Shown here: positions 35,105 to 55,878 of the stretch, piece by piece
How the letters are laid out: the number at the start of each line of letters is the position of its first letter
Position numbering within the stretch: the stretch's first letter is position 1
Origin: a virus
Length of the DNA stretch: 64,000 nt
Virus record (IMG/VR): IMGVR_UViG_3300047311_000323
Coordinates: 96,001 to 160,000 of that record
Reading direction: 5' to 3' (one strand)
Program-made: the position numbers and the translations under genes
The notes under the pieces: model-generated
The model's database searches: none
What the model saw: only the letters and a program-made list of their open reading frames with translations
Told to the model about the DNA's origin: nothing

Positions 35105-35546
35105 TTTCAGGACGTTTCTTTACCGATTTATCATTGAAAGCCCAGACCGTTGCGCCACATTCGCAACCAACGTATTCTACTACGTTATCGCGGTCCATAG
35201 CTTCTATGCCATGTGATTTATGTAGGGCTGGACTATACGACTTAGCTTCGATGGCAAAGGAAAGGTCCCCCAAATTATGGAAGTATCTGGGCTGAAACTC
35301 CTGGTACCAGTTTGATACCATTCTCTTTACCCACTTTTTAGCAAACTTGGAGTAAATCAAGAAGTGCTTAATCTCTTTCCACTTGAAAGGCTGCATACTA
35401 GCATAGTAGTAATCTGGGCCCTTTCCGCATTCTTTACAGATAGCACGTGGTAAAAAGGTGGATGAGATATTGATTCTCACTACTTCTTGTTTAGAATTCA
35501 TGATTAAAGCCATTGCGCGATTAAGTTCTTTAGTCCTACTGTCCAT
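35055..35546 (-). CDS. hypothetical protein with Cys pairs
   Basis: CKEC and CECG. Confidence 0.6.
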   Translation of the reverse strand: MDSRTKELNRAMALIMNSKQEVVRINISSTFLPRAICKECGKGPDYYYASMQPFKWKEIKHFLIYSKFAKKWVKRMVSNWYQEFQPRYFHNLGDLSFAIEAKSYSPALHKSHGIEAMDRDNVVEYVGCECGATVWAFNDKSVKKRPEITNRKGRYKYPQKFVY

Positions 35547-39711: not shown

Positions 39712-39731
39712 GAAAAGATATGTAATTATTG

Positions 39732-40178
39732 CTATTTGATGATTTGAACCGTCTTTTTCTTAAGGGTTCCTAGCCTAAGATTTCTTTTTGCTTTTCGTTC
39801 CTCTGACAGCTTCTTTTCCAGTTTCTGGTTAAAACTGACGATTGCTTGCCAAGAAAACCCTAATCTGTTGTCTAAATCACCTTCGTGAAGCCCAATGATA
39901 AATCCAGTATTATCAATACTGTAAGAATCAATAGAAATTCGTTGGTACCCCTGATCTTCTAACAAGGATACCAACGACTCCACAACATCACTCCAACAAA
40001 TCCGACCTCCGCTTTTAGGGGAGGATCTTTTAAGAGTAGCTTTGTAACCTGCTTGTGGTAACAAACTATCACAAAGCTTCTTAAAGTCTTCTAATGTAGT
40101 ACCTTCGGGACCACTAAAGAAATAGTGCTCCTGCCAGTCGTAGTCAGAATATACTAGGTCAAAAACGTTGTCGCTCAT
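39732..40178 (-). CDS. hypothetical protein (TAG stop, backup TAA at 39726-39728)
   Basis: ORF overlapping the upstream gene's stop. Confidence 0.65.
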   Translation of the reverse strand: MSDNVFDLVYSDYDWQEHYFFSGPEGTTLEDFKKLCDSLLPQAGYKATLKRSSPKSGGRICWSDVVESLVSLLEDQGYQRISIDSYSIDNTGFIIGLHEGDLDNRLGFSWQAIVSFNQKLEKKLSEERKAKRNLRLGTLKKKTVQIIK

Positions 40179-50798: not shown

Positions 50799-50813
50799 TT
50801 TTAGTAGTTTTAG

Positions 50814-50887
50814 TGCGCCGTGTGGGATTTGAACCCACGACCGTTCGTTTTAGAGGCGACCGCTCTGCCAGGCTGAGCTAACGGCGC
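50814..50887 (-). tRNA. amber suppressor tRNA (anticodon CTA) no. 1
   Basis: Perfect 7-bp acceptor GCGCCGT/ACGGCGC, D-arm GCTC..GAGC, anticodon loop CT-CTA-AA, T-arm GTGGG-TTCAAAT-CCCAC; A73; CCA not encoded; anticodon stem has only 3 Watson-Crick pairs. Confidence 0.8.
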
Positions 50888-51054: not shown

Positions 51055-52065
51055 TCAACTTAATGCCATCATCCTATCAATGGATATTCTGGCTTGGTTC
51101 ATTAATTCTTCTGACATATTGATCTGCGGTGTCAGGTCTCTCAAAGAGAGATATACCTTCTCCAAGGTATTCTTCTTCATGAACGGACACTCGTTGCACG
51201 CACAACTTGCTTCAGGCGGTGCAGGAATGAAAATCTTATCTGGAGCGGCCTTCTGCATTTGATGCAAAATACCTGCTTCTGTTGCTACAATGAATTCTTT
51301 GTTTGGACTGCTGACAGCATATTTGAGAATGCCAGTCGTCGATCCAATGAAGTCTGCCATCTTCAAGATAGGTTCTTCACATTCGGGGTGAGCCAAAACT
51401 AGTGCATTAGGATTACGAGTCTTGATACCAATCAGTTTGCGCTCACTGAATGTCTCATGAACGATGCAGGCTCCTTGCCACATGATCATAGGGATGCCAG
51501 TTTTCTTCATGATATAGTTGCCAAGATTTCTATCTGGAGCAAAGAGAATCTCCTTGCCAGACTTGGCAGCTTCACGAACAATCTTTTCTGCATTGGATGA
51601 CGTACAAATGTAATCTGACAATGCTTTGACTTCAGCCGAACAGTTGATGTAACTGACTACCACTGAATTGGGGTGCATGCTCTTCCAAGCGGCGAATTTA
51701 TCAGCAGGGCAACCATCTGCCAGAGAACAACCAGCTTCCAAGTCAGGAAGGACTACAGTTTTCTGAGGGGAGAGGATCTTGGCTGTCTCAGCCATAAAGT
51801 GCACGCCAGCAAAACAGATAACATCAGCATTAGTCTTTGCAGCTTCTTGGGAGAGTTGTAAGGAATCTCCGATGAAGTCAGCAACATCTTGAATTTCAGA
51901 ATCCTGATAGTAGTGGGCCAAGATAACGGCATTGCGTTCTTTTTTGAGGAAAGCAATTCTCTCTTCAATGTCGAAGATCGATAGTCCGTCATACGTGCCA
52001 TCAGCCTGGGCCTTACGTTTCGCTTCTTTGAATTCACTTGCTGAGAAAATAGGTAGTTTATTCAT
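51055..52065 (-). CDS. nadA: quinolinate synthase NadA
   Basis: [50 protein letters not shown] and C.CNECPFMK. Confidence 0.96.
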
Positions 52066-52231: not shown

Positions 52232-52305
52232 TGGCTCCCGCAGAGGGGCTCGAACCCCCTTCTTCCGTTTTAGAGACGGCGCTCTACCAGTTGAGCTATG
52301 CGAGA
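52232..52305 (-). tRNA. amber suppressor tRNA (anticodon CTA) no. 2
   Basis: Acceptor TCTCGCA/TGCGGGA, G73, encoded CCA; anticodon arm CCGT-CTCTAAA-ACGG; T-loop TTCGAGC. Confidence 0.88.
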
Positions 52306-52437: not shown

Positions 52438-52761
52438 TTATTCTAAGGTTGAAATAATGTCGGCAGGCCCTTTATATTTTGGATTCCATCGATATTTACC
52501 AACGGCTTCCTTATTATCATTTGGAGATTCGTACTCTAATGCTCCGATAGCAACCAAAGAGTTCAAAAGCGCAAACAATGTATCACCCAATGGATTTGGT
52601 TCTCGTATGGTGCTTTTGGCACCATGCCAAGTATCATGATCAAAAGGTGCGCCATACTCCGGCCAAAACCCCAAAGTTGCTCCTAGTTCATAGGCGGCTG
52701 CATCCCAATAGACCCAGCCAGCTAAGCGTTCTTGAAGTGATGCAATACTAGTCTTTTTCAT
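52438..52761 (-). CDS. hypothetical protein
   Basis: 107-aa ORF. Confidence 0.65.
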   Translation of the reverse strand: MKKTSIASLQERLAGWVYWDAAAYELGATLGFWPEYGAPFDHDTWHGAKSTIREPNPLGDTLFALLNSLVAIGALEYESPNDNKEAVGKYRWNPKYKGPADIISTLE

Positions 52762-52919
52762 AGGTCACACGCACATGATTTGTTACAATTTGCACACTCA
52801 GAAACGAAGCACTCTTCACAGAAGTCTTCCGACTCACAAGTGTGATCTGGGCAGAAAAGCGATGGTGAATCGCAGCATGCTCCAGAACATGGGCACAAAT
52901 CATTATCCTTCTTGCTCAT
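52758..52919 (-). CDS. small Cys-rich, metallothionein-like protein (53 aa, 12 Cys)
   Basis: Hand-translated MSKKDNDLCPCSGACCDSPSLFCPDHTCESEDFCEECFVSECANCNKSCACDL; its TGA overlaps the next ATG. Confidence 0.6.
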   Translation of the reverse strand: MSKKDNDLCPCSGACCDSPSLFCPDHTCESEDFCEECFVSECANCNKSCACDL

Positions 52920-53142
52920 CGTCGTCTTCCTCGGCCCCTCTTTTCATAAGGGCATTCAATTCTTCACGTGGAATATCGGGCCAATTATCAGGTCTTCCAT
53001 CTTTAGGAAGTGGGAAAATAGCTCCAGCCTCTTTATCATGGAAAATGCAAAGCAATCCTGCTTTACCTTCATGAACATAAACGCCAGTGGGCATACCACA
53101 AAAACATTCAGGCCCACGCTCTTTATCAATCCATTGACTCAT
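52903..53142 (-). CDS. hypothetical protein with CFC...CIFH metal-binding pattern
   Basis: 79-aa ORF overlapping both neighbours. Confidence 0.6.
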   Translation of the reverse strand: MSQWIDKERGPECFCGMPTGVYVHEGKAGLLCIFHDKEAGAIFPLPKDGRPDNWPDIPREELNALMKRGAEEDDDEQEG

Positions 53143-53489
53143 TTTCCACCTCTCAAAGCTAGGGGCAATCGGCTACAAAGCTTTTTAGACTTAGGACCGG
53201 GAGCCAAAGCAATCGCCGTAATCTGATTATCAATATCAGGCTCTCTGAATACAGAAAAACTAATATCATGGAACGTAGCCTGTTTCGCTAAGTCCATCAG
53301 TTCCTGCTCATCAGTCACTGACAACAATCCAAGGTAATTGGATTGCTCAAACCACAACTTATCAATCTCCGGATGATCTGCCGTAAACTGACGCAAAGCA
53401 TGCATGCTTTGAACTGCTTGATATCCTGGTTCCAAATCTGCACGAGTAATAACATAAAGCTTGTCGCCTTCTTTAACCTATAGACACAT
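53139..53489 (-). CDS. Pth2-like peptidyl-tRNA hydrolase with in-frame TAG at codon 4 (read-through required)
   Basis: GGAGA SD then ATG TGT CTA TAG GTT AAA GAA GGC GAC AAG...; KLYVITRADL.PG.QA.Q..HA, V.DE.EL and EPD...ITAIALAP...L..LPL Pth2-type motifs. Confidence 0.75.
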
Positions 53490-54069
53490 GATTATCTCCA
53501 AATAGTTTGCGGCAAATTGCTTTACCGCGCTTGTTAATTTGACTCCACTTAATCTTGAATGATTCAGATTCAATGCCGCCAAACATCTTTGCATTGCTAT
53601 GCACCTCAGCTAGCCCGGCCAACAACAATGTCGTTGCCTCTCGGTGCTGACAAAACTCATCTACGTCTACTGCCTTCATGGTATGAATCTTCATATCATG
53701 CAGAATGAGTTTAGCAATAGTCTTATTAGAACTAATCCTCAGCCATGTCTGATAAGACATCCAAGGATGGTTAGGGAAATGTCTACGACCCCGTTCATCA
53801 ACAGTTAGACAGTAGGGCTTGCCGCAATCATGAAAGACTGCGTAACCCGCAATAATATCGTCTGGAAGCAAGGAGGCTAACAACTGCTCTCGATACTCAC
53901 TCATCCAGTCGGGTAATCTCCAACCTTCGCCTATCTGGCCGGTTTTCAAAAATGAAATCAATTCAAAAATGTGCTCTTTAACAGAGACGCCGTGTTGGTA
54001 CACGGATTGGCTATCCGTTTGGGGACAGCTTTGCATATCAGAAATTAAACGATTCTATAGGTAACTCAT
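53473..54069 (-). CDS. HD-domain phosphohydrolase with in-frame TAG at codon 5 (read-through likely)
   Basis: ATG AGT TAC CTA TAG AAT CGT TTA ATT TCT GAT ATG...; H...HDCGKP....HFPNH, like the HD domains of tRNA nucleotidyltransferases; track start 54036 is the downstream alternative. Confidence 0.72.
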
Positions 54070-54087: not shown

Positions 54088-54579
54088 TTATTGATTGATT
54101 ATTTCTTCTAACAAAACTCTAGAATTCATTAACTCTAGTGGTTTGTGCGTATCTAGTTCCCAAGTTACATGGTGACGTGTGCCGCCCATATAACGCTCAA
54201 AATGTAGCATTGTCGTGCCATTACCCTTATCCTTTTTTAGAACAGGGACAACAGTAGCAATCAGCTCACCTTCTGTAACTTTATATCCCACTTTGATATG
54301 TGGCAGTGGTTTGATTTCACAATAACCAAGCACACAATGAGCGCCTTCAATTAGAATAGACCAAGTCTCTAACCACCATGGACTTGGAGGATTAGCATTG
54401 GGCCCAGTGAAGTTCTCAATATGAACTACCTCACCATCCTCAATAGCCTGAATCTCTTGGCCGAAGCCACAATAGATGTCTACGCCTGGGTGGTAGTAGA
54501 AGGAACGTTTGAAAGCAAAATCGCCCACTGCTCCCTCTTCGGGAATAGCGGGCGTTTTATCTCTAAGTGGCCATTTCAT
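54088..54579 (-). CDS. M23 family metallopeptidase (possible cell-wall hydrolase)
   Basis: HPGVDI, AIEDGEV, VKVGYKV..GE.IA.V and MLHFE. Confidence 0.8.
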   Translation of the reverse strand: MKWPLRDKTPAIPEEGAVGDFAFKRSFYYHPGVDIYCGFGQEIQAIEDGEVVHIENFTGPNANPPSPWWLETWSILIEGAHCVLGYCEIKPLPHIKVGYKVTEGELIATVVPVLKKDKGNGTTMLHFERYMGGTRHHVTWELDTHKPLELMNSRVLLEEIINQ

Positions 54580-55142: not shown

Positions 55143-55494
55143 TGGTGGAGATGCAGGGTACTGCCCCCTGGTCCGCGATATGCCCTTATCAAAACTCATT
55201 CACAAACTTAGTTGATATTAGCGTCATCAACAACGCTGCAAGAATTTGCTCCGGCTGGCTATCTACTGTTAATCTTGTTGTTGAACATCGTAGCCCTGTT
55301 CATCAACCAGCTTTGTGGGTTGGCGTTCCTTTGATTACTCAAGCAGTCTTATCTGGGAACGAATGGTGCCGTTAGGCGGCCATTGCAAATGCATTATCGT
55401 TTGCATTTATACGTCAATTGCTTTTAGAGGGGCAATCATCCTCTGTTTGCGTCATTCTGATAACTCGTTACCACGTCGAATCTATGTCATCCCC
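55143..55494 (-). ncRNA. ssrA: tmRNA, one-piece; tag peptide (A)ANDNAFAMAA
   Basis: 5' GGGGATGAC...GATTCGAC; 3' CAGGG-GGCAGTA-CCCTG-CATCTCC-A-CCA with G3-U70; tag ORF 55372-55404 GCA AAC GAT AAT GCA TTT GCA ATG GCC GCC TAA. Confidence 0.95.
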
Positions 55495-55501
55495 ATAAAT
55501 G

Positions 55502-55524
55502 AAAAATCCCACGAGGTGTGGGAT
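55502..55524 (-). terminator. hairpin plus T-tract between the tRNA-Thr cluster and tmRNA
   Basis: ATCCCAC/GTGGGAT 7-bp stem followed by TTTT on the minus strand. Confidence 0.5.
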
Positions 55525-55597
55525 GGAGCTAATGATGAGAATCGAACTCATGTAGCTGCGTTACGAGTGCAGCGTAATACCACTATACTACATTAGC
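55524..55597 (-). tRNA. tRNA-Thr(CGT)
   Basis: GCTAATG...CATTAGC-T-CCA; loop CTCGTAA. Confidence 0.9.
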
Positions 55598-55600
55598 GTG

Positions 55601-55675
55601 TGGAGCTGATTGTGGGAATTGAACCCTCATTTCCGCGTTACTAGGGCGGAGTAATAGCCGTTATACTAAATCAGC
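55601..55675 (-). tRNA. tRNA-Thr(AGT)
   Basis: GCTGATT...AATCAGC-T-CCA; loop CTAGTAA. Confidence 0.88.
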
Positions 55676-55678
55676 TTA

Positions 55679-55753
55679 TGGAGCCCAAGTCGAGAGTCGA
55701 ACTCGATTTTCGTCTTTACCAAAGACGGGTAATAACCGTTATACTACGTGGGC
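55679..55753 (-). tRNA. tRNA-Thr(GGT)
   Basis: GCCCACG...CTTGGGC-T-CCA; arm CGTCT-TTGGTAA-AGACG. Confidence 0.9.
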
Positions 55754-55762
55754 TTATCGGTT

Positions 55763-55836
55763 TGGAGCTGATGCCGAGAATCGAACTCGGTTCTCCTCGT
55801 TACAAGGGAGGAATAATACCATTATACTAAATCAGC
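55763..55836 (-). tRNA. tRNA-Thr(TGT)
   Basis: GCTGATT...CATCAGC-T-CCA; loop CTTGTAA. Confidence 0.9.
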
Positions 55837-55848
55837 TTATCGTGGTAC

Positions 55849-55878
55849 ATAATATAACCACTTATTGATAGGTGTCAA
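55849..55878 (-). promoter_or_regulatory. sigma70-like promoter for the tRNA-Thr cluster
   Basis: TTGACA (55873-55878), then 16-18 nt, then TATATT/TATTAT, about 13 nt upstream of the first tRNA. Confidence 0.55.

What the first reader, a model, noticed from the sequence alone, without database searches (positions are those of the whole stretch)
53139..53489. Pth2-like gene whose only good start lies upstream of an in-frame TAG
Seen: GGAGA-TAATC-ATG TGT CTA TAG GTT AAA GAA GGC GAC AAG CTT TAT GTT ATT ACT CGT GCA GAT TTG... (TAG at 53478-53480). The ORF-track start (TTG 53435) has no SD and deletes the first conserved Pth2 strand (KLYVITRADL), so a complete fold needs read-through. A purine follows the UAG, a context known to favour amber suppression. 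Inference: without read-through this is a 3-codon minigene ending on a CUA codon. That resembles lambda bar minigenes, which cause peptidyl-tRNA drop-off, the very substrate of Pth, so the design could be a self-sensing feedback loop.
Basis: partly seen in the sequence, partly recalled or inferred. Interest (0 to 1): 0.88.

Follow-up and report, generated by a model that had tools for sequence, protein, structure and literature searches.

The report
Amber-gated phage Pth2-like gene
A large soil phage keeps a UAG stop as the fourth codon of a small tRNA-hydrolase-like gene and carries two UAG-reading tRNAs just downstream; since 45 of 68 diverged phage relatives share the layout, the enzyme is probably made only when those tRNAs override the stop.

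Summary
On the minus strand, GGAGA-N5-ATG TGT CTA TAG sits at 53499-53478, in frame with a Pth2-fold protein. That protein's first beta-strand (KLYVITR) lies before the only later start, TTG 53435.

The TAG is conserved, not an error:
- 45 of 68 non-redundant homologous phage loci have ATG plus 0-3 codons plus TAG at this spot, and never TAA or TGA.
- Contigs from four soil or rhizosphere runs carry the same bases.
- 41 of those 45 loci encode a UAG-reading tRNA within 4 kb, against 4 of 23 loci without the TAG.

This window has two tRNA(CUA) genes, 0.8 and 2.3 kb downstream on the same strand. The overlapping upstream HD gene has the same CTA-TAG at codon 5. The 198-kb contig otherwise uses the standard code.

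Best reading: translation of the Pth2-like and HD genes is gated by the phage's own amber suppressor tRNAs. Its bar-minigene feedback idea is not, because the last sense codon is not conserved and a dedicated suppressor explains the design. Nothing here is experimental.

I found no paper describing this. This scan has noted the same layout before on other genomes. It also offers a target for "orphan" suppressor tRNAs of cultured jumbo phages such as XacN1.

The parts
53139..53489 (-). Pth2-like gene read from ATG 53489 through TAG (codon 4) to TGA; 116 aa if the UAG is decoded
   Evidence: PF01981, 29.8 bits; pLDDT 96.3; best PDB matches are Pth2 structures 2zv3, 1q7s, 1wn2, 3erj, 1xty; TM 0.67-0.75.
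53478..53480 (-). In-frame TAG, codon 4 of the Pth2-like gene
   Evidence: The same position is TAG in 45 of 68 non-redundant relatives. It is unchanged in contigs of four runs.
53495..53499 (-). GGAGA Shine-Dalgarno motif, 5 nt before ATG 53489
   Evidence: 19 of 45 leader-TAG relatives have an SD-like 4-mer within 16 nt before the leader ATG.
53473..54069 (-). HD-domain-like gene overlapping the Pth2-like start by 17 nt; ATG 54069, AGT TAC CTA, TAG 54057-54055 (codon 5), internal ATG 54036
   Evidence: In 12 of 12 relatives that have this gene just upstream of Pth2, an M-x(1-4)-TAG leader is followed by a conserved N/L-x-L-I-x-D peptide before the internal Met. It matches phrog_14850 at E 4e-59.
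52232..52305 (-). tRNA with anticodon CUA (loop CUCUAAA); U1-A72, G73, CCA encoded; 834 nt downstream of the Pth2-like stop
   Evidence: ARAGORN; Rfam tRNA model, 49.2 bits; 99% identical to a tRNA in L002.
50813..50887 (-). Second tRNA with anticodon CUA (loop CUCUAAA); two non-Watson-Crick pairs in the anticodon stem; no encoded CCA
   Evidence: ARAGORN; Rfam tRNA model, 59.7 bits; 83-92% identical to tRNA(CUA) genes in L002, L003, L005 and L009.
55143..55494 (-). tmRNA gene upstream on the same strand
   Evidence: Rfam RF00023, 100.6 bits, E 6e-39. ARAGORN missed it. Relatives L002, L004, L008, L009, L012, L013 and L072 have a tmRNA at the same relative place.
55524..55836 (-). Array of four tRNA-Thr genes at the head of the cluster
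55851..55878 (-). Sigma-70-like promoter match (TTGACA, 16 nt, TATATT; 11 of 12) just upstream of the tRNA-Thr array; a possible start of the transcription unit
   Evidence: This is a consensus match only; the number of such sites in the region does not exceed shuffles.
54557..54565 (-). TAG AGA TAA: tandem stop ending the HNH endonuclease gene
   Evidence: 3 of the 4 TAG-ending ORFs of 120 aa or more in the contig have TAA exactly one codon later (background 6%; binomial p 8.5e-4).
39726..39734 (-). TAG CAA TAA tandem stop of a 152-aa gene
35530..35538 (-). TAG GAC TAA tandem stop of a 458-aa gene

Best explanation
The Pth2-like gene starts at ATG 53489 and is a natural amber-interrupted gene. 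Ribosomes load at the GGAGA site, read Met-Cys-Leu and meet UAG. If host RF1 wins, only a tripeptide is released and no enzyme is made. If one of the phage's own tRNA(CUA) molecules decodes the UAG, the full four-stranded Pth2-fold protein is made.

The overlapping upstream HD-like gene is built the same way, with CTA-TAG at codon 5. The two tRNA(CUA) genes lie downstream on the same strand. The pair of tRNA-end enzymes is therefore produced only when, and in proportion to how much, amber suppression is active in the infected cell. The rest of the 198-kb contig uses the standard code.

Shown: the anatomy, its conservation, the fold, and the co-occurrence with suppressor tRNAs.

Inferred: that the tRNAs are expressed and charged, which residue is inserted, and what the gate is for. 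My preferred purpose, held at low confidence, is feed-forward. Read-through of natural stops creates stalled ribosomes and stray peptidyl-tRNA, so the phage couples a tRNA-recycling or repair pair (next to its own tmRNA) to the level of suppression.
For: - Anatomy.
- Fold: strand 1 lies upstream of the only later start, and the fold is Pth2.
- Family N-termini always include strand 1.
- 45 of 68 non-redundant loci have ATG plus 0-3 codons plus TAG, never TAA or TGA. 43 of 45 have no other start before strand 1.
- A UAG-reading tRNA lies within 4 kb in 41 of 45 leader-TAG loci against 4 of 23 without the TAG (Fisher 1.7e-9, not corrected for phylogeny). It is nearly always on the same strand and mostly 0.02-3.3 kb downstream.
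- On the protein tree the TAG lies on both sides of the deepest (midpoint) split, with about 4 changes, across branch lengths above 1 change per site.
- TAG-less homologs have Met-Ala-Thr-Ile-Lys where others have Met-x-TAG-Ile-Lys, so the ATG is the homologous start.
- The Leu codon before the TAG varies synonymously among close relatives (CTA, CTT, TTA), although those changes are non-synonymous in the overlapping HD frame.
- The HD gene has the same leader in 12 of 12 relatives.
- The contig is not recoded: ORF cover is 0.95 under code 11 and 0.96 with TAG as sense, and long genes have no internal TAG.
- TAG is a rare terminator, and 3 of 4 credible cases are TAG-NNN-TAA.
- Terminase genes of three relatives are open with no stops.
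- Public gene calls of the 116-aa form exist only 'with_TAG=Q'.
Against: - Nothing is experimental. Expression, charging and amino-acid identity of the tRNAs are unknown, and they resemble only other suppressors.
- tRNA 50813-50887 has a weak anticodon stem and no encoded CCA.
- Four leader-TAG loci show no suppressor within 4 kb, and four TAG-less loci do have one.
- The co-occurrence test is not phylogenetically corrected.
- The contig is about 45% of the genome by CheckV, so other TAG-bearing genes or code-change factors could lie in the unseen part.
- The protein lacks the Lys of the canonical Pth2 G-K motif (Tyr23 here, variable across the family). The catalytic Asp aligns with an invariant Glu. 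Peptidyl-tRNA hydrolase activity is therefore not assured.
- The HD gene has an ATG 7 codons after its TAG, so its gating may be only partial.
Confidence: 0.72

Rival explanations
1. Bar-type minigene feedback. ATG-TGT-CTA-TAG acts as a three-codon minigene whose peptidyl-tRNA drops off. Accumulating peptidyl-tRNA, the substrate of Pth, somehow raises read-through, giving a self-sensing loop.
For: - The leader has the form SD plus AUG plus 1-4 sense codons plus stop.
- Very short nascent chains are the ones prone to drop-off (established knowledge of minigenes and Pth, recalled from memory).
- The downstream product has a Pth2 fold.
Against: - The last sense codon is not conserved: 17 kinds, with CTA in 9 of 45.
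- The stop is TAG in 45 of 45, although any stop would serve a drop-off design.
- Dedicated tRNA(CUA) genes co-occur.
- The HD gene uses the same device.
- No step is known that would turn peptidyl-tRNA build-up into UAG read-through.
- The canonical catalytic Lys of Pth2 is absent.
Confidence: 0.06
2. The TAG is a true stop of a tiny upstream ORF. The enzyme is made without suppression, either by re-initiation at the next codon or from the downstream TTG.
For: The codon after TAG is ATT, ATC, ATA or ATG in 34 of 45 relatives. ATT can serve as a rare bacterial start codon. A TTG exists at residue 19 here.
Against: - Here the next codon is GTT. In 10 of 45 relatives the next codon is not a known initiator (GTT, GTA, AAC, AGC, ACT, ACA, AAA).
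- Ile/Val at this place is also conserved in TAG-less homologs.
- The stop would not need to be TAG every time.
- The TTG product lacks strand 1. 26 of 45 relatives have no canonical start at all up to that point.
- Linkage to tRNA(CUA) would be left unexplained.
Confidence: 0.08
3. Ordinary genome-wide TAG reassignment (code 15). The Pth2-like gene is just one of many TAG-containing genes.
For: - Suppressor tRNAs and TAG depletion are typical of recoded phages and their relatives (bioRxiv 10.1101/2021.08.26.457843).
- Lak megaphage records hold homologs.
- Only about 45% of this genome is in hand.
Against: - Across 198 kb only the two adjacent genes carry an in-frame TAG.
- Long genes up to 1368 codons have no TAG downstream of their start ATG.
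- ORF cover does not rise with TAG read as sense.
- Terminase genes of relatives have no stops.
- The TAG sits at one conserved place rather than being scattered.
Confidence: 0.06
4. A +1 frameshift at the end of the HD gene (GGT-TAA-A) fuses HD to the Pth2-like domain. The ATG...TAG would then be irrelevant.
For: - The two genes overlap by 17 nt, and the Pth2 frame is +1 relative to the HD frame.
- In Xanthomonas phage XacN1 the two domains are one ORF.
Against: - GGU slipping to GUU is not a workable re-pairing.
- The Pth2-like gene has its own well-spaced SD and ATG.
- Distant relatives that have no HD gene upstream keep the ATG-x-TAG leader.
Confidence: 0.03
5. A nonsense mutation, pseudogene or assembly error.
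For: A single in-frame stop is what such an error would look like.
Against: - The same TAG appears in 45 diverged loci and in contigs of four runs.
- The protein is strongly conserved and folds at pLDDT 96.
Confidence: 0.01

Closest known systems
Stop-codon-recoded phages with phage-encoded suppressor tRNAs (TAG read as Gln, 'code 15'; crAss-like, Lak and others; bioRxiv 10.1101/2021.08.26.457843, PMC9523058)
   Same: - A phage-encoded tRNA(CUA).
- TAG is depleted as a terminator.
- In-frame TAG holds back translation until suppression is on.
- The host uses the standard code.
   Different: There, TAGs are scattered through many genes, mainly late and lysis genes, and coding density under code 11 is low. 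Here, 198 kb is standard code and only two adjacent small genes carry one TAG each. The TAG sits at a conserved place 1-4 codons after the start. The gated genes encode tRNA-end enzymes, not virion or lysis proteins. Neither paper mentions a peptidyl-tRNA hydrolase.
prfB (RF2) autoregulation through an early in-frame UGA (PMC12421855)
   Same: A conserved early in-frame stop in a translation-factor-type gene makes its synthesis report on how termination at that stop is going.
   Different: prfB needs a +1 frameshift, and its own product reads the stop. Here the frame does not change, the stop is read by a separate tRNA gene, and no feedback of the product on UAG decoding is shown.
Lambda bar minigenes (recalled from memory, not checked here)
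   Same: SD plus AUG plus one to three sense codons plus stop, with a link to peptidyl-tRNA hydrolase biology.
   Different: Bar minigenes stand alone, and their effect depends on the tRNA of the last sense codon. Here the mini-ORF is in frame with a conserved domain, the last codon varies, and the stop is always TAG with a matching tRNA nearby.
Archaeal and eukaryotic Pth2 (PF01981; PDB 2zv3, 1xty, 1q7s)
   Same: Four-strand, four-helix fold, TM 0.67-0.75. The match is above the Pfam cut-off. The conserved Gln and His of helix 1 are kept.
   Different: There is a two-residue deletion at the G-K-G-K loop, and the Lys is replaced by a variable residue. An invariant Glu aligns with the catalytic Asp. 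This is a separate, large, mostly viral subfamily: phrog_1866, with 1685 cluster representatives at E 1e-3 or better.
Synthetic suppressor-tRNA feed-forward loops in E. coli (PMC7969014)
   Same: A coherent feed-forward design built around a suppressor tRNA and amber codons, used to cut leaky expression.
   Different: That system is engineered. This would be a natural counterpart.

Membership tests
Pth2 peptidyl-tRNA hydrolase (PF01981) | Sequence match above the curated Pfam cut-off | tested here: met
   29.8 bits against a cut-off of 23, E 7.7e-7. A family profile hits PDB Pth2 2zv3 at E 2.4e-5.
Pth2 peptidyl-tRNA hydrolase (PF01981) | Four-stranded sheet with four helices, superposable on solved Pth2 structures | tested here: met
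   Model pLDDT 96.3 with strands at 10-16, 52-58, 78-83 and 89-95. Foldseek top matches are all Pth2, TM 0.67-0.75, probability 1.00.
Pth2 peptidyl-tRNA hydrolase (PF01981) | Catalytic Lys of the G-K motif and catalytic Asp (residues recalled from work on the Sulfolobus enzyme; no paper was read here) | tested here: not met
   The Lys column aligns with Tyr23, which varies across the family. The Asp column aligns with an invariant Glu83. I therefore call the protein 'Pth2-like', not a proven Pth2.
Pth2 peptidyl-tRNA hydrolase (PF01981) | Hydrolysis of peptidyl-tRNA | not testable with these tools
   This needs an enzyme assay or pth(ts) complementation.
Code-15 (TAG-recoded) phage | Phage-encoded tRNA with anticodon CUA | tested here: met
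   Two genes, found by ARAGORN and by Rfam.
Code-15 (TAG-recoded) phage | Many genes with in-frame TAG; low coding density under code 11 | tested here: not met
   ORF cover is 0.95 under code 11 and 0.96 with TAG as sense. Internal TAGs occur only in the two adjacent genes within 198 kb. Caveat: the contig is about 45% of the genome.
Code-15 (TAG-recoded) phage | Release factor or aminoacyl-tRNA synthetase genes for code change | tested here: inconclusive
   No RF-1 domain or class Ic synthetase domain was found in the 198 kb, but the genome is incomplete.
Lambda bar-type minigene | SD plus AUG plus 1-3 sense codons plus stop | tested here: met
   Relatives have 0-3 sense codons.
Lambda bar-type minigene | The effect rests on a particular last sense codon and its tRNA | tested here: not met
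   17 different codons precede the TAG in 45 loci.
Lambda bar-type minigene | Toxicity when Pth is limiting | not testable with these tools
   This needs expression in a pth(ts) strain.
prfB-type autoregulation | A conserved early in-frame stop whose reading is affected by the gene's own product | tested here: inconclusive
   An early conserved stop is present (met). Any effect of the product on UAG decoding is unknown.

The most novel reading that the evidence does not exclude
The suppressor tRNAs, the Pth2-like enzyme and the HD enzyme form a closed control circuit. The two enzymes are made only through UAG read-through and in turn act on the suppressor tRNA's 3' end or on its peptidyl or aminoacyl form. 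They would thereby set the level of amber suppression in the infected cell. This would be a tRNA-based natural counterpart of prfB autoregulation, and it would name the long-sought target of 'orphan' suppressor tRNAs in standard-code jumbo phages.
Probability: 0.2. Interest if true: 0.85.

Novelty: new variant of a known kind. Interest (0 to 1): 0.7.

Why it matters
Many large phages with the standard code carry suppressor tRNAs for which no target gene has been found. The authors of Xanthomonas phage XacN1 (PMC5852040) and Stenotrophomonas phage Summit (PMC9022506) say so explicitly. A conserved amber codion placed 1-4 codons into a Pth2-like gene, and into its HD neighbour, next to those tRNAs gives them a concrete and testable target.

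It also shows stop-codon read-through used as a single-gene switch rather than as a genome-wide code change. Several cultured phages carry the module. In XacN1 the HD and Pth2-like domains are fused behind an ATG-AAA-TAG leader. In GAP32 the HD homolog has an internal TAG and a Sup-tRNA lies nearby. Proteomics, reporters and enzyme assays are therefore possible now.

For annotation, standard pipelines truncate these genes (88-104 aa calls on long contigs) or call them under code 15 (116 aa beginning MCLQ).

Tried and rejected
- Near-identity DNA search of the phage collection found no match.
- A first AlphaFold2 run on 44 close homologs gave pLDDT 52 and was discarded. A 98-sequence alignment fixed it.
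- One encoding-contig look-up returned no DNA because the sample's file was too large.
- I tried to assign the suppressor tRNAs to an isoacceptor by similarity to 273 tRNAs of the loci. The best non-suppressor matches were only 0.70-0.73 identical, which is background, so the inserted residue stays open. U1-A72 and G73 in tRNA 52232-52305 recall bacterial tRNA-Gln, from memory only.
- The crude per-locus test of recoding (ORF cover with TAG or TGA as sense) does not discriminate well on 8-kb loci.
- XacN1 ORF295 is a canonical Pth2 with a normal start and is not part of this story.
- Mycobacteriophage homologs (Catera gp153, Myrna gp84) sit in tRNA arrays; Catera gp153 starts normally with no leader TAG, and Myrna gp84's start was not read.
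- RNA evidence: no RNA holder was listed among the public runs.
- The promoter and terminator scan gave consensus matches no more numerous than in shuffles.
- Literature: no paper holds both 'suppressor tRNA' and 'PTH2'. The other searches found nothing on an amber-interrupted Pth gene.

Full report
**1. What is there**

On the minus strand the sequence reads GGAGA (53499-53495), five bases, ATG (53489-53487), TGT, CTA, TAG (53480-53478). It continues GTT AAA GAA GGC GAC AAG CTT TAT GTT ATT ACT CGT GCA GAT TTG and stays open to TGA at 53139. The first canonical start after the TAG is TTG 53435, which has no Shine-Dalgarno (SD) ribosome-binding motif.

**2. The protein**

- Read through the TAG, the 116-aa product matches Pfam PTH2 at 29.8 bits (cut-off 23), residues 10-102 to profile positions 2-104. 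The TTG product begins only at profile position 13.
- A family profile finds the archaeal Pth2 structure 2zv3 at E 2.4e-5 and aligns KLYVITR-DL with its first strand, KMVVVIRNDL.
- An AlphaFold2 model from 98 diverse relatives reaches pLDDT 96.3. It has strands at 10-16, 52-58, 78-83 and 89-95 and four helices.
- Its best PDB matches are all Pth2 (2zv3, 1q7s, 1wn2, 3erj, 1xty; TM 0.67-0.75).
- Strand 1 therefore lies between the TAG and the TTG, so the TTG product would lack one of four strands.
- In 98 representatives of the family, strand 1 is always present, with 0-18 residues before it.
- The family is large: 1685 cluster representatives at E 1e-3 or better. It matches phrog_1866 better than the generic hydrolase PHROG, phrog_3668.
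- It differs from canonical Pth2. The Lys of the G-K motif aligns with a variable residue (Tyr23 here). The catalytic Asp aligns with an invariant Glu83.
- I therefore call it Pth2-like. Its substrate is open.

**3. The TAG is conserved**

- Eighty IMG/VR loci encode relatives at 45-87% identity. 68 are non-redundant.
- In 45 of these the conserved N-terminus (I/V-K..KLY) is directly preceded by TAG. An ATG lies 0-3 sense codons further upstream, for example MCL#VK, MS#IK, MK#IH and MKET#IN, where # marks TAG.
- None has TAA or TGA at that place.
- 43 of 45 have no ATG, GTG or TTG between the TAG and strand 1. 26 of 45 have none up to the position of this window's TTG.
- Where the lineage uses SD sites, the motif sits 5-9 nt before the leader ATG (19 loci).
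- TAG-less relatives read M-A-T-I-K-M-G-D-K-L-Y, so the ATG is the homologous start and the TAG occupies an ordinary residue position.
- On a maximum-likelihood tree the TAG lies on both sides of the deepest (midpoint) split: 23 of 24 rows and 19 of 41 rows. The label changes about four times. In 500 shuffles the count was never that low.
- Public protein entries of 113-117 aa that begin MCLQ or MSLQ are this same TAG translated as Gln by gene callers. One such entry translates to its record only 'with_TAG=Q'.
- Logan contigs from four soil or rhizosphere runs carry ATG-TGT-CTA-TAG unchanged, among many strain differences elsewhere.

**4. The partner tRNAs**

- The window encodes two tRNAs with anticodon CUA on the same strand, at 52232-52305 and 50813-50887. 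These lie 834 and 2252 nt downstream of the gene. Both pass Rfam's tRNA model and both have the loop CUCUAAA.
- Across the 68 loci, 41 of 45 with the leader TAG have a UAG-reading tRNA within 4 kb. All are CUA except one UUA. Only 4 of 23 without the TAG have one (Fisher 1.7e-9; relatedness not corrected).
- These tRNAs are nearly always on the same strand and mostly 0.02-3.3 kb downstream.
- They belong to several sequence lineages. They resemble each other more than any typed isoacceptor, so the inserted residue is unknown.

**5. The neighbour gene does the same**

I followed a first-stage note on this genome and tested the overlapping upstream gene.

- It reads ATG AGT TAC CTA TAG (TAG 54057-54055), then seven codons, then the ATG that ORF finders use.
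- In 12 of 12 relatives that have this gene just upstream of Pth2, an M-x(1-4)-TAG leader is followed by a conserved N/L-x-L-I-x-D peptide. That stretch is therefore translated.
- The protein belongs to phrog_14850. Its nearest named atlas cluster carries an HD domain in 15% of members and is labelled as a polynucleotide adenylyltransferase. This is a lead only.
- In Xanthomonas phage XacN1 the HD and Pth2-like parts are a single ORF (ORF364). Just upstream of its annotated start lies ATG AAA TAG. The XacN1 authors reported two tRNA(CUA) genes and could not find their targets (PMC5852040).
- In Cronobacter phage GAP32 the HD homolog is annotated in three pieces around an internal TAG. A Sup-tRNA lies 2.3 kb downstream.

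**6. The rest of the contig**

- The window is part of a 198,396-bp IMG/VR record that CheckV rates at 45% complete. The close relative behind L002 is 480,838 bp and rated 100% complete.
- ORF cover is 0.95 under code 11 and 0.96 with TAG as sense. Long genes have no TAG after their start ATG.
- A scan for start plus 0-5 codons plus TAG plus a long open frame finds only the Pth2-like and HD genes with both an ATG and an SD-like context.
- TAG ends only four ORFs of 120 aa or more, and three of them read TAG-NNN-TAA. The background for a stop exactly one codon later is 6%, giving p = 8.5e-4. This agrees with a first-stage note and fits a genome that expects UAG read-through.
- Terminase genes of three relatives are open with no stops.
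- I found no release-factor or class Ic synthetase domain in the 198 kb.
- A tmRNA gene lies at 55143-55494 on the same strand, as in seven relatives.
- A good sigma-70-like match lies just upstream of the tRNA-Thr array (weak evidence).

**7. Reading**

The simplest account is that synthesis of the Pth2-like protein, and at least part of the HD protein, depends on the phage's own amber suppressor tRNAs.

- The early position of the TAG makes the abortive product a harmless tripeptide. It also puts the inserted residue in an unconstrained tail, which fits the variety of tRNA lineages.
- Why these two genes are gated is inference. Both look like enzymes of the tRNA 3' end. In XacN1 they are fused. 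They sit beside tRNA arrays and a tmRNA.
- A feed-forward link between the level of read-through and the clean-up of stalled or stray tRNA species is my preferred guess.
- A feedback loop on the suppressor itself is the bolder alternative. I put it at about 0.2.

**8.

The need for read-through is supported. The purine after UAG holds (44 of 45), but the conserved Ile/Val explains it as well. The bar-minigene feedback idea finds no support for four reasons:
- the last sense codon varies (17 kinds);
- the stop is always TAG;
- a matching tRNA is next door;
- the HD gene uses the same device.

**9. Novelty**

- Papers on recoded phages do not mention a peptidyl-tRNA hydrolase.
- No paper in the library holds both 'suppressor tRNA' and 'PTH2'.
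- Other searches found only a synthetic counterpart, PMC7969014.
- This scan has met the same layout before on other genomes, and those follow-ups reached the same reading. A later check there priced the bold closed-circuit claim at 20 in 100.

I class it as a new variant of a known kind: suppressor-tRNA-dependent translation in phages, here narrowed to a conserved two-gene switch in a standard-code genome.

Noticed in passing
L022, L025, L028, L029, L030, L034, L036, L038, L045 (0.01-1.6 kb downstream of the Pth2-like gene): In the higher-G+C clade (0.45-0.64) whose Pth2-like genes have no leader TAG, the place of the CUA tRNAs is taken by tRNAs with irregular anticodon loops holding UUUCAA. 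ARAGORN calls these 2- or 4-base anticodons and cannot decide between Glu UUC and opal-reading UCA. They may be another kind of suppressor.
   Followed up: partly
L085:2420-3349 (Xanthomonas phage XacN1, AP018399 about 243.7-244.6 kb): ORF364 is a fusion of the HD-like and Pth2-like domains. ATG AAA TAG lies just upstream of its annotated start. This is a candidate target for the two tRNA(CUA) genes whose targets the XacN1 authors could not find.
   Followed up: partly
L086:2477-3043 (Cronobacter phage GAP32, JN882285): The HD homolog is annotated as three fragments (GAP32_398, 398A, 399) around an internal in-frame TAG. An annotated Sup-tRNA lies 2.3 kb downstream.
   Followed up: partly
window 55143-55494 (-): A tmRNA gene is found by Rfam at 100.6 bits but was missed by ARAGORN on this window.
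   Followed up: yes
window 51055-52065 (-): A full-length quinolinate synthase (nadA)-like ORF, judged by eye from its sequence, lies between the two suppressor tRNA genes. It would be an auxiliary NAD-pathway gene inside the tRNA cluster.
   Followed up: no
window 52758-52919 (-) and 52903-53142 (-): Two small Cys-rich ORFs (53 and 79 aa) follow the Pth2-like gene. The 79-aa ORF starts in an ATGA overlap with the Pth2-like stop. Neither matches Pfam or PHROGs.
   Followed up: partly
window 53478-53483 and 54055-54060 (-): Both gated genes use the same hexamer, CTATAG, which is its own reverse complement. Leu is the commonest residue before the TAG in this clade and is kept by synonymous changes (CTA, CTT, TTA).
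   Followed up: partly
Short contigs give 113-117-aa products beginning MCLQ or MSLQ, where TAG is read as Gln. Long contigs give truncated products of 88-104 aa.
   Followed up: yes
L081, L082 (Mycobacterium phages Catera and Myrna): The same Pth2-like subfamily sits inside the tRNA arrays of cluster C mycobacteriophages; Catera gp153 has a normal GTG start and no leader TAG, Myrna gp84's start was not read. The link to phage tRNA genes is therefore wider than the amber gate.
   Followed up: partly
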